From the NCBI GenBank assembly GCA_964016885.1, contig OZ024745.1, forward strand, positions 88,908,001 to 88,972,000: 64,000 bases of DNA, written 5' to 3'. The DNA is from Eledone cirrhosa. Lineage: Eukaryota. Below are positions 53,798-56,700 of this stretch, piece after piece (the stretch's first letter is position 1; the number at the start of each line of letters is the position of its first letter). Both the position numbers and the translations under genes were made by a program. Below the pieces are notes generated by a model. That model had not been told where the DNA came from and did no database searches. It was given only the letters and a program-made list of their open reading frames with translations.

Positions 53798-56700
53798 GAA
53801 TATAGACATAGAATATTCGAAAATATTCTGTATGTTTATAATAAACATTTTGAAGACCTAATCGCTATAGAATAGAATACGTCACGTATTACAATTAGAT
53901 TCTCGATAAAAGCAAGGGAAGTAATCTACGCGTTTCATTCTTGTTAGAATTCATCAGGACTACATATCCAGTGCTTTTATCGAGAATGACACAGCTAGAG
54001 ACTTATAGAATACTTAGCTGTGTACAGGAACTGGTTTGAAAGAGCGGTTGCCGGTCCGGCAGAAATTAGAAATTGGAATAAATGCTCTGAAATAGCGATA
54101 TATATGTGAATATAGACATAGAATATTCGAAAATATTCTGTATGTTTATAATAAACATTTTGAAGACCTAATCGCTATAGAATAGAATACGTCACGTATT
54201 ACAATTAGATTCTCGATAAAAGCAAGGGAAGTAATCTACGCGTTTCATTCTTGTTAGAATTCATCAGGACTACATATCCAGTGCTTTTATCGAGAATGAC
54301 ACAGCTAGAGACTTATAGAATACTTAGCTGTGTACAGGAACTGGTTTGAAAGAGCGGTTGCCGGTCCGGCAGAAATTAGAAATTGGAATAAATGCTCTGA
54401 AATAGCGATATATATGTGAATATAGACATAGAATATTCGAAAATATTCTGTATGTTTATAATAAACATTTTGAAGACCTAATCGCTATAGAATAGAATAC
54501 GTCACGTATTACAATTAGATTCTCGATAAAAGCAAGGGAAGTAATCTACGCGTTTCATTCTTGTTAGAATTCATCAGGACTACATATCCAGTGCTTTTAT
54601 CGAGAATGACACAGCTAGAGACTTATAGAATACTTAGCTGTGTACAGGAACTGGTTTGAAAGAGCGGTTGCCGGTCCGGCAGAAATTAGAAATTGGAATA
54701 AATGCTCTGAAATAGCGATATATATGTGAATATAGACATAGAATATTCGAAAATATTCTGTATGTTTATAATAAACATTTTGAAGACCTAATCGCTATAG
54801 AATAGAATACGTCACGTATTACAATTAGATTCTCGATAAAAGCAAGGGAAGTAATCTACGCGTTTCATTCTTGTTAGAATTCATCAGGACTACATATCCA
54901 GTGCTTTTATCGAGAATGACACAGCTAGAGACTTATAGAATACTTAGCTGTGTACAGGAACTGGTTTGAAAGAGCGGTTGCCGGTCCGGCAGAAATTAGA
55001 AATTGGAATAAATGCTCTGAAATAGCGATATATATGTGAATATAGACATAGAATATTCGAAAATATTCTGTATGTTTATAATAAACATTTTGAAGACCTA
55101 ATCGCTATAGAATAGAATACGTCACGTATTACAATTAGATTCTCGATAAAAGCAAGGGAAGTAATCTACGCGTTTCATTCTTGTTAGAATTCATCAGGAC
55201 TACATATCCAGTGCTTTTATCGAGAATGACACAGCTAGAGACTTATAGAATACTTAGCTGTGTACAGGAACTGGTTTGAAAGAGCGGTTGCCGGTCCGGC
55301 AGAAATTAGAAATTGGAATAAATGCTCTGAAATAGCGATATATATGTGAATATAGACATAGAATATTCGAAAATATTCTGTATGTTTATAATAAACATTT
55401 TGAAGACCTAATCGCTATAGAATAGAATACGTCACGTATTACAATTAGATTCTCGATAAAAGCAAGGGAAGTAATCTACGCGTTTCATTCTTGTTAGAAT
55501 TCATCAGGACTACATATCCAGTGCTTTTATCGAGAATGACACAGCTAGAGACTTATAGAATACTTAGCTGTGTACAGGAACTGGTTTGAAAGAGCGGTTG
55601 CCGGTCCGGCAGAAATTAGAAATTGGAATAAATGCTCTGAAATAGCGATATATATGTGAATATAGACATAGAATATTCGAAAATATTCTGTATGTTTATA
55701 ATAAACATTTTGAAGACCTAATCGCTATAGAATAGAATACGTCACGTATTACAATTAGATTCTCGATAAAAGCAAGGGAAGTAATCTACGCGTTTCATTC
55801 TTGTTAGAATTCATCAGGACTACATATCCAGTGCTTTTATCGAGAATGACACAGCTAGAGACTTATAGAATACTTAGCTGTGTACAGGAACTGGTTTGAA
55901 AGAGCGGTTGCCGGTCCGGCAGAAATTAGAAATTGGAATAAATGCTCTGAAATAGCGATATATATGTGAATATAGACATAGAATATTCGAAAATATTCTG
56001 TATGTTTATAATAAACATTTTGAAGACCTAATCGCTATAGAATAGAATACGTCACGTATTACAATTAGATTCTCGATAAAAGCAAGGGAAGTAATCTACG
56101 CGTTTCATTCTTGTTAGAATTCATCAGGACTACATATCCAGTGCTTTTATCGAGAATGACACAGCTAGAGACTTATAGAATACTTAGCTGTGTACAGGAA
56201 CTGGTTTGAAAGAGCGGTTGCCGGTCCGGCAGAAATTAGAAATTGGAATAAATGCTCTGAAATAGCGATATATATGTGAATATAGACATAGAATATTCGA
56301 AAATATTCTGTATGTTTATAATAAACATTTTGAAGACCTAATCGCTATAGAATAGAATACGTCACGTATTACAATTAGATTCTCGATAAAAGCAAGGGAA
56401 GTAATCTACGCGTTTCATTCTTGTTAGAATTCATCAGGACTACATATCCAGTGCTTTTATCGAGAATGACACAGCTAGAGACTTATAGAATACTTAGCTG
56501 TGTACAGGAACTGGTTTGAAAGAGCGGTTGCCGGTCCGGCAGAAATTAGAAATTGGAATAAATGCTCTGAAATAGCGATATATATGTGAATATAGACATA
56601 GAATATTCGAAAATATTCTGTATGTTTATAATAAACATTTTGAAGACCTAATCGCTATAGAATAGAATACGTCACGTATTACAATTAGATTCTCGATAAA

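What the first reader, a model, noticed from the sequence alone, without database searches (positions are those of the whole stretch)
53801..54110. The whole 310-nt monomer folds into a closed multibranch, viroid-like structure
Seen complementary pairs: hairpin 53801-53840; atcgctat 53861-53868 with atagcgat 54092-54099 closing a junction; hairpin aatacg/cgtatt 53876-53890; ribozyme arm 53899-53987; acacagcta/tagctgtgt 53989-54023; agagc 54041-54045 with gctct 54084-54088 enclosing tgccg/cggca. Inference: this much pairing outside the ribozyme points to selection on a stable RNA circle rather than a neutral DNA satellite.
Basis: partly seen in the sequence, partly recalled or inferred. Interest (0 to 1): 0.75.

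Follow-up and report, generated by a model that had tools for sequence, protein, structure and literature searches.

The report
Structure-selected hammerhead retrozyme RNA
This 310-base repeat belongs to a known class of protein-free jumping RNAs (retrozymes); paired sequence changes among its older sister families indicate that its folded shape is likely kept by selection on the RNA, and its most conserved folded part lies where a Penelope-type transposon enzyme likely starts copying it, though a circular form is only inferred.

Summary
The listed complementary stretches exist and the unit folds better than shuffles (circular z -5.5 plus, -4.3 minus). The unit is a young non-LTR retrozyme (13,837 exact 39-mer hits) with five older sister lineages 64-69% identical. 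Compensatory changes exceed a column-shuffling null over the whole fold (10-25 pairs vs 3.5-13) and, more weakly, outside the ribozyme arm (4 of 6 references). Inserted copies decay neutrally. Variants fixed across whole arrays keep minus-strand pairing (8/11) but not plus-strand pairing (1/11), mostly as A>G. So the fold is selected in the RNA phase. It does not prove a circle: every helix spans at most 89 nt in the tandem RNA, and the RNA is branched, not viroid-like. Circularity is inferred from one haplotype per two-armed array and from arms that ignore the cut site. Both fixed insertion ends lie in or beside a conserved 3' domain that a second retrozyme family shares, a candidate Penelope start signal. 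The scan already noted two-armed Penelope footprints and editing marks on other DNA of this genome. No RNA data, no helper element found.

The parts
53788..60277 (-). Tandem array, 20.9 copies of the 310-nt unit; one visible arm, cut off by an assembly gap (N at 60278-60477)
   Evidence: 19 of 20 full copies identical, one with one substitution
53801..54110 (-). One monomer; the functional RNA is the minus strand
53921..53963 (-). Type I hammerhead: stem I (6 bp), core CUGAUGA 53957-53951, stem II (5 bp), GAAA 53936-53933, 2-bp palindromic stem III 53933-53928; predicted cut between 53927 and 53926
   Evidence: motif scan; pair check; Rfam HH9 23 bits, below its gathering score of 52
53899..53987 (-). 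Ribozyme arm; basal 16-bp perfect stem (53899-53914 with 53972-53987) would clamp the two ends of a cut monomer; strongest covariation
   Evidence: helix 5: 12 of 19 pairs with two-sided change
53810..53829 (-). Hairpin P8 (8 bp; loop UUCG here, GCAA/GCCA/ACCA in sister lineages), two compensatory pairs
53832..53848 (-).
53861..53868 (-). Helix P6 5' strand; pairs with the 54092-54099 equivalent of the neighbouring unit and encloses P7, P8 and the short insertion end; conserved by invariance, no two-sided change
   Evidence: (helix 11)
53876..53890 (-). Hairpin P5; sister lineages have a hairpin at the same place in another register
53989..54023 (-). Hairpin P3 around a conserved UUCUAUAAG loop; outer stem remodelled in the young family, one compensatory pair
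54041..54088 (-). Helix P1 (54084-54088 with 54041-54045) enclosing hairpin Pa (54049-54061) and a 22-nt loop that holds the long insertion end (unit position 272 = 54072)
53270..53800 (.). (TA)n target and the array's short outer end (unit position 298-308)
46332..53200 (.). Neighbouring fold-back Penelope-like element (GIY-YIG, minimal hammerheads at 46415 minus and 53015 plus); no likeness to the unit beyond the hammerhead core, so not shown to be the helper
26326..26382 (-). End of a copy of a second (about 335-nt) hammerhead repeat family with the same P7-AC-P8 cassette

Best explanation
The unit is a young non-LTR retrozyme whose minus-strand RNA carries a type I hammerhead motif and a branched fold that is likely held by selection during the RNA phase; the RNA is predicted to be cut once per unit, likely closed into a circle, and likely copied round and round into (TA)n DNA by a Penelope-like reverse transcriptase. 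Shown here: hammerhead motif and strand, covariation, neutral decay after insertion, two-armed arrays with one short and one long fixed end, one haplotype per array. Inferred: the 16-bp arm base plus stem I hold the two cut ends together for ligation (RtcB-type, as shown in vitro for axolotl and mussel); the palindromic 2-bp stem III makes cutting a dimer reaction that spares the monomer; the 3' domain (P6, P7, P8, P1) binds the helper protein and places its two start sites about 30 nt apart; both ends of the cut target prime synthesis, and the two cDNAs join at a variable inner junction. The fold therefore serves ligation and enzyme docking, not autonomous viroid-type replication.
For: Energy: 0 of 300 circular shuffles as low on either strand; four sister lineages z -5.6 to -7.4 on minus, 0 of 60 each. 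Covariation with the structure taken from one lineage and tested on the others: 10-25 compensatory pairs vs null means 3.5-13.3, p <= 0.002 for 6 of 6 references; on 12 real copies 23 of 95 pairs vs 13.6 shuffled and 7-10 slid. Outside the arm 4-8 pairs vs 1.5-2.6, p < 0.05 for 4 of 5 older references. Catalytic core: C3-G8 in three lineages, U3-A8 in three, the covariation reported in PMC4209133. Post-insertion changes hit paired and unpaired sites equally (0.024 vs 0.021) and keep pairing in 59 of 185. Array-fixed variants in helices keep minus-strand pairing in 8 of 11 vs 17 of 57 single-unit variants (p 0.014), plus-strand pairing in 1 of 11; 7 of 11 are A>G on the RNA vs 8 of 57 (p 0.001). 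Architecture: 82 of 96 loci two-armed; 73 of 73 with both ends in view have one short and one long end; arms share a haplotype in 67 of 73; 29 haplotypes in 89 arrays; 5 of 162 inner ends within 3 nt of the cut site vs 3.7 expected. Inverted copy, 30-40-bp tail, two start sites and AT-rich targets are the Penelope-like signature (PMC8557442, PMC11167929).
Against: No RNA, cleavage or circle was observed. All helices are local and the linear monomer folds as well. With the window's own fold as reference, covariation outside the arm is not above the null (6 vs 5.3, p 0.43); one older reference gives p 0.085. Three of the outside-arm compensatory pairs change on the same lineage split, so independent events are few. 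P1 and P6 show no two-sided change within the family. The between-lineage G-U strand test was inconclusive (10:2 and 7:5 vs 36:29). The absence of fixed variants in the 11 core positions (0 of 28 vs 8 of 145) is too small to be significant. Six arrays have arms that differ, and L128, L255 and L270 mix haplotypes. The one Penelope-like enzyme studied in vitro does not need hammerhead cleavage (PMC11167929); 8 of 9 Xenopus retrozymes did not cleave in vitro (bioRxiv 2026.07.22.740005). No autonomous element with the 3' domain was found in 50 GIY-YIG loci.
Confidence: 0.68

Rival explanations
1. Same element and same Penelope-like enzyme, but the template is an uncut linear multimer transcript; the fold is selected for cleavage control and enzyme docking, and circles are a by-product or absent.
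For: No helix needs a circle (spans <= 89 nt). Inner ends ignoring the cut site fits uncut RNA too. Uncut RNA was the main substrate of the anole enzyme (PMC11167929). Mixed-haplotype arrays L128, L255, L270 could copy a mixed source array.
Against: Variants found in only one to three arrays are present in every unit of both arms, including A>G at paired adenosines; an edit or copying error in one unit of a linear multimer would stay in that unit. Arms reach 27 units.
Confidence: 0.22
2. A viroid-like replicon that also multiplies RNA-to-RNA, with genomic arrays as its footprints.
For: Size, hammerhead, z-scores on both strands. Three runs of unknown library type from three studies hold only one closed 340-nt contig with 0-1 differences, which a circle or a tandem array would both give.
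Against: A hammerhead was found on one strand only; paired fraction equals shuffles; no Rfam family reaches its gathering score; haplotypes are explained by transposition.
Confidence: 0.06
3. A neutral DNA satellite whose palindromes arise from DNA-level processes and whose folding is incidental.
For: Both strands fold about equally; genomic copies do decay neutrally.
Against: Dispersed short two-armed arrays with fixed ends, compensatory changes including the catalytic 3-8 pair, strand-specific A>G pattern.
Confidence: 0.03

Closest known systems
Metazoan non-LTR retrozymes (Cervera and de la Pena 2020, PMC7229834, parts 2-4 of 6 read; Li, Clavereau and Pollet 2026, bioRxiv 10.64898/2026.07.22.740005, parts 1-3 of 5 read; review PMC7761336, passages)
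   Same: Non-coding tandem repeat of 150-450 bp, low GC, one type I hammerhead per unit with short palindromic helix III, predicted stable self-paired fold, co-occurrence with Penelope-like elements; a U-U at the base of helix II, the commonest state here (61 of 89 arrays), is described for axolotl HHR_Amex2.
   Different: In the parts read, structures are minimum-energy predictions without a covariation test, and two-armed arrays with fixed ends are not described; the review says the repeats show no conserved motif pointing to a helper, whereas here a 3' cassette recurs in two families. Expression and circles are shown there, not here. Supplements (Figs S6, S9 of PMC7229834; preprint tables) were not read and may bear on this.
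Penelope-like elements (Craig et al. 2021, PMC8557442, passages; Frangieh et al. 2024, PMC11167929, parts 1-2 of 4; Cervera and de la Pena 2014, PMC4209133, passages)
   Same: Inverted 5'-truncated second copy, 30-40-bp tail on one end, AT-rich or (TA)n targets, two internal start sites downstream of a hammerhead, U3-A8 core variant.
   Different: No ORF; each arm is a long run of identical units; no sequence link to a coding element was found.
Hammerhead satellites of cave crickets and newts (pDo500, PMC2837043, passages)
   Same: Compensatory changes in hammerhead stems of a tandem repeat.
   Different: There the hammerhead region is the more conserved part; here the arm diverges three times faster (0.33) than the rest (0.11) while keeping its pairing.
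Hammerhead viroids (Avsunviroidae; features from PMC7761336 passages and recall)
   Same: Size, hammerhead, dimer-type helix III.
   Different: Genome-encoded; ribozyme on one strand only; no evidence of RNA-to-RNA replication or infectivity.

Membership tests
Non-LTR retrozyme | Tandem repeat of 150-450 bp with low GC | tested here: met
   310 bp x 20.9, GC 0.34
Non-LTR retrozyme | Complete type I hammerhead in consecutive units | tested here: met
   21 of 21 copies, stems 6/5/2 bp; below Rfam gathering score
Non-LTR retrozyme | No protein coding | tested here: met
   No ORF of 150 aa or more inside the array; shorter ORFs not examined
Non-LTR retrozyme | Dispersed, mobile copies | tested here: met
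   13,837 exact 39-mer hits; 961 long and 738 short TA-flanked ends
Non-LTR retrozyme | Stable self-paired predicted fold | tested here: met
Non-LTR retrozyme | Self-cleavage and accumulation as circular RNA | not testable with these tools
   No run on record as RNA was listed; contigs only
Penelope-mobilised non-autonomous element | Inverted second arm, one-sided 30-40-bp tail, AT-rich target | tested here: met
Penelope-mobilised non-autonomous element | Terminal sequence shared with a coding Penelope-like element | tested here: inconclusive
   None in 50 of the 150 listed GIY-YIG loci nor in the window's own element; the genome holds far more candidates
Viroid (hammerhead type) | Ribozymes in both polarities | tested here: not met
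   Motif scan of both strands finds it on minus only; other ribozyme classes only via Rfam
Viroid (hammerhead type) | Autonomous RNA-to-RNA replication without a DNA form | tested here: not met
   Thousands of genomic DNA copies; extra RNA replication itself not testable

The most novel reading that the evidence does not exclude
The non-ribozyme half of the unit is a transferable 'start cassette' (P6 enclosing P7-AC-P8, followed by P1) that unrelated retrozyme families share and that places the Penelope enzyme's start site by distance from a helix rather than by sequence; the genomic arrays are then a fossil record of single folded, A-to-I-edited RNA circles copied round and round from both ends of a DNA break.
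Probability: 0.4. Interest if true: 0.72.

Novelty: new member of a known kind. Interest (0 to 1): 0.5.

Why it matters
Retrozyme structures in the papers read here are single-sequence predictions, and copying of the circle by a Penelope-like enzyme is proposed, not shown. This family supplies a natural mutagenesis series that separates selected helices from incidental ones, shows that selection acts in the RNA phase, and names a roughly 130-nt domain and two positions where reverse transcription should start. That makes the open step directly testable in an existing in vitro assay. The class itself, and its folding, are known.

Tried and rejected
DNA search of the genome with the whole unit returned nothing because common words are skipped; patterns were used instead. 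Rfam at gathering scores: 0 matches in the window; miRNA matches at lax E-value come from (TA)n. Sequencing runs: no RNA holder listed; contigs of 6 runs cannot show strand, ends or circularity, and the 340-nt closed contigs in X1, X3, X6 fit a tandem array as well as a circle. Between-lineage G-U strand test inconclusive; alignment folds differ only modestly (covariation term -3.11 minus, -0.41 plus). P8 was mis-numbered; one search has the corrected counts. Seven of 66 sister copies were dropped as fold-back chimeras or too short, and 6 singletons were left out of the lineage tests. The idea that the long end lies at one distance from P6 in all families was rejected: 18 nt in the young and old 310-type families, 21-28 nt in 7 of 7 ends of the second family. 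Helper search: 30 loci (about 3 kb) plus 20 loci (9.9 kb) of 150 listed GIY-YIG matches gave only separate retrozyme insertions; 30 of 402 cassette hits were a second non-coding family. The neighbouring element at 46332-53200 shares only the hammerhead core. Literature searches listed no paper with a whole-monomer covariation test or two-armed retrozyme arrays; the library lacks most subscription papers. Protein folding and complex tools were not used: no protein belongs to the finding.

Full report
Observation. The window holds 20.9 copies of a 310-bp unit at 53788-60277, ending at an assembly gap; 19 of 20 full copies are identical. The plus strand folds at -77.4 kcal/mol as a circle (z -5.5) and the minus strand at -68.3 (z -4.3), each below 300 of 300 shuffles; the paired fraction, 0.61 and 0.57, is no higher than in shuffles, 0.59 and 0.55. 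A type I hammerhead sits on the minus strand of every copy, with a 6-bp stem I, a 5-bp stem II and a 2-bp palindromic stem III. Rfam scores it below the gathering threshold. Removing the ribozyme arm lowers z to -2.4 on minus and -2.9 on plus.

The family. A 39-mer from the unit has 13,837 exact hits in the 3.0-Gb genome. Earlier scan notes call the host octopus-like; I did not test that. A second pattern, suggested by loose ends, found 8,510 hits of older relatives. From 100 loci I kept one copy per insertion (66), dropped 7, and grouped 53 into five lineages; 6 singletons were left out. The lineages are 75-93% identical to each other and 64-69% to the window unit, and each folds into the same branched layout on the ribozyme strand, with z -5.6 to -7.4 for the four tested.

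Covariation. To avoid circularity I took the structure from one lineage, tested it on the others, and re-dealt partners among pairs of the same type as a null. Compensatory pairs numbered 15, 10, 17, 12, 13 and 25 against null means of 5.0, 4.1, 4.9, 3.5, 4.5 and 13.3 (p <= 0.002). On 12 real copies, 23 of 95 pairs change on both sides against 13.6 shuffled and 7-10 when partners are slid; that shuffle ignores relatedness. Most of the signal is in the ribozyme arm. Outside it, the five older references give 4, 8, 4, 6 and 7 pairs against 1.5-2.6 (p 0.04, 0.002, 0.085, 0.007, 0.0002), but the window's own fold gives 6 against 5.3, because P3 and P5 are re-registered in the young family. Three of these pairs change on one lineage split. 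P8, P7, P3, P5 and Pa each carry one or two compensatory pairs; P1 and P6 are conserved by invariance only. The catalytic core reads CUGA-GA in three lineages and UUGA-AA in three, the C3-G8 to U3-A8 covariation reported in PMC4209133 (passages read).

When selection acts. Changes private to one genomic copy fall on paired and unpaired sites alike (0.024 vs 0.021) and keep pairing in 59 of 185 cases: inserted DNA decays neutrally. In the young family, 96 loci were typed. Variants fixed in all units of an array keep minus-strand pairing in 8 of 11 helix sites against 17 of 57 single-unit variants (p 0.014), and plus-strand pairing in 1 of 11. Seven of the 11 are A>G on the RNA against 8 of 57 (p 0.001); none is C>U, the other wobble-making change, and one A>G site recurs on four haplotype backgrounds. 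This fits A-to-I editing of folded RNA, or selection for G-U pairs; both need the minus-strand fold. Numbers are small, single-unit variants may include assembly errors, and the between-lineage strand test was inconclusive.

Does the fold show a circle? No. In the tandem RNA no helix spans more than 89 nt, and a monomer cut at the ribozyme folds at -73.9 against -68.3 for the circle. The one helix that closes anything is the arm: after cutting, its 16-bp base and stem I join the monomer's own two ends, which would suit ligation; RtcB closed axolotl and mussel monomers in vitro (PMC7229834, parts 2-4 of 6 read). Evidence for a circular template comes from the arrays. Of 96 loci, 82 are two back-to-back arms, 11 show one arm, 3 are complex. 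All 73 with both outer ends in view have one short end (unit 298-308) and one long end (unit 265-280); 80 of the 96 loci were picked for having a long end or both, so the pairing of types, not their frequency, is the test. Among 16 loci picked without regard to ends, 12 of 14 long ends lie at 272-274. Genome-wide there are 961 long and 738 short TA-flanked ends, and 48 of 85 listed short ends face a long end within 12 kb, with no long-long and one short-short inward pair. Arms share a haplotype in 67 of 73 arrays, 89 arrays give 29 haplotypes, and 5 of 162 inner ends lie within 3 nt of the cut site against 3.7 expected. One template read many times explains this best; an uncut multimer explains the last point but not rare variants fixed in every unit. 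Three arrays mix haplotypes.

What the fold outside the ribozyme is for. This part diverges three times more slowly than the arm (0.11 vs 0.33), the reverse of the cricket satellite pDo500 (PMC2837043, passages). It holds both insertion ends. The long end lies 18 nt after helix P6 in 26 of 46 old-family ends and in 26 of 28 young ones (most of the young loci were picked for that end), although a 6-nt insertion in the young family shifts the homologous sequence; old loci were picked by a motif that hides ends closer than about 12 nt. A second family of about 335 nt, with 402 hits to a cassette pattern and a copy at window 26326-26382, has the same P6, P7-AC-P8 and P1 layout with different letters, but its long ends fall at 21-28 nt (7 of 7). 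An inverted copy, a one-sided 30-40-bp tail and (TA)n targets mark Penelope-like elements (PMC8557442, passages), and the tail equals the distance between two internal start sites of the anole enzyme (PMC11167929, parts 1-2 of 4). I infer that the domain docks such an enzyme. No coding element carrying it was found in 50 GIY-YIG loci or in the fold-back element beside the array.

Comparison and verdict. The element meets every testable feature of a non-LTR retrozyme and fails two of a viroid. Stable predicted folds are known for the class, and a Penelope link is proposed (PMC7229834; bioRxiv 10.64898/2026.07.22.740005, parts 1-3 of 5; PMC7761336, passages). Searches listed no whole-monomer covariation test or two-armed retrozyme arrays; supplements were not read. 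The scan's own notes already record the two-armed footprint for this family and editing marks for others; I had formed the two-armed reading before looking and retested it. What this finding adds is a helix-by-helix test, the strand correction, and the mapping of both start sites onto the conserved 3' domain. New member of a known kind; interest 0.5.

Noticed in passing
window 46332-53200: Fold-back Penelope-like element with 99% identical 2.7-kb arms, C-terminal GIY-YIG preceded by a cysteine-rich linker (Neptune-like, label recalled), minimal hammerheads at both ends, TA-flanked; its two ends differ by about 100 nt.
   Followed up: partly
window 26326-26600; L216-L245: Second hammerhead repeat family of 332-341 nt with palindromic AUGCAU helix III, fold-back insertions and the same 3' cassette as the 310-nt family.
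   Followed up: partly
L229:1430-3028: An arm of the 335-nt family runs directly, in the same orientation, into a 5'-truncated Penelope-like ORF; template switch or insertion into that element.
   Followed up: no
L128 (G000:C1:136719300-136726100), L255, L270: Arrays that switch haplotype within or between arms; L128 changes three linked sites part-way along one arm, suggesting a switch between two templates or two nested insertions.
   Followed up: no
L206:8053-9637, L190, L207: A roughly 500-nt hammerhead repeat with a looser version of the two-hairpin cassette next to its TA-flanked end.
   Followed up: no
runs X1, X3, X6: Three studies under three organism labels hold only a single closed 340-nt contig at depth 12-34 with 0-1 differences from the window unit, unlike the hundreds of variant contigs in X2, X4, X5; library type not on record.
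   Followed up: partly
window 32451 (-), 34958 (+), 39094 (+), 26003 (+): Further hammerhead-like cores of other repeat families.
   Followed up: no
window 60478-62300: Broken non-LTR retrotransposon reverse transcriptase fragment just beyond the gap, followed by (TA)n; the array's second arm, if any, is hidden in the gap.
   Followed up: partly
L196, L197, L201, L205, L207: Young Penelope-like family with long ORFs (938 aa in L196) whose hammerhead-like core reads UUGAAAA, a U3-A8 variant.
   Followed up: no
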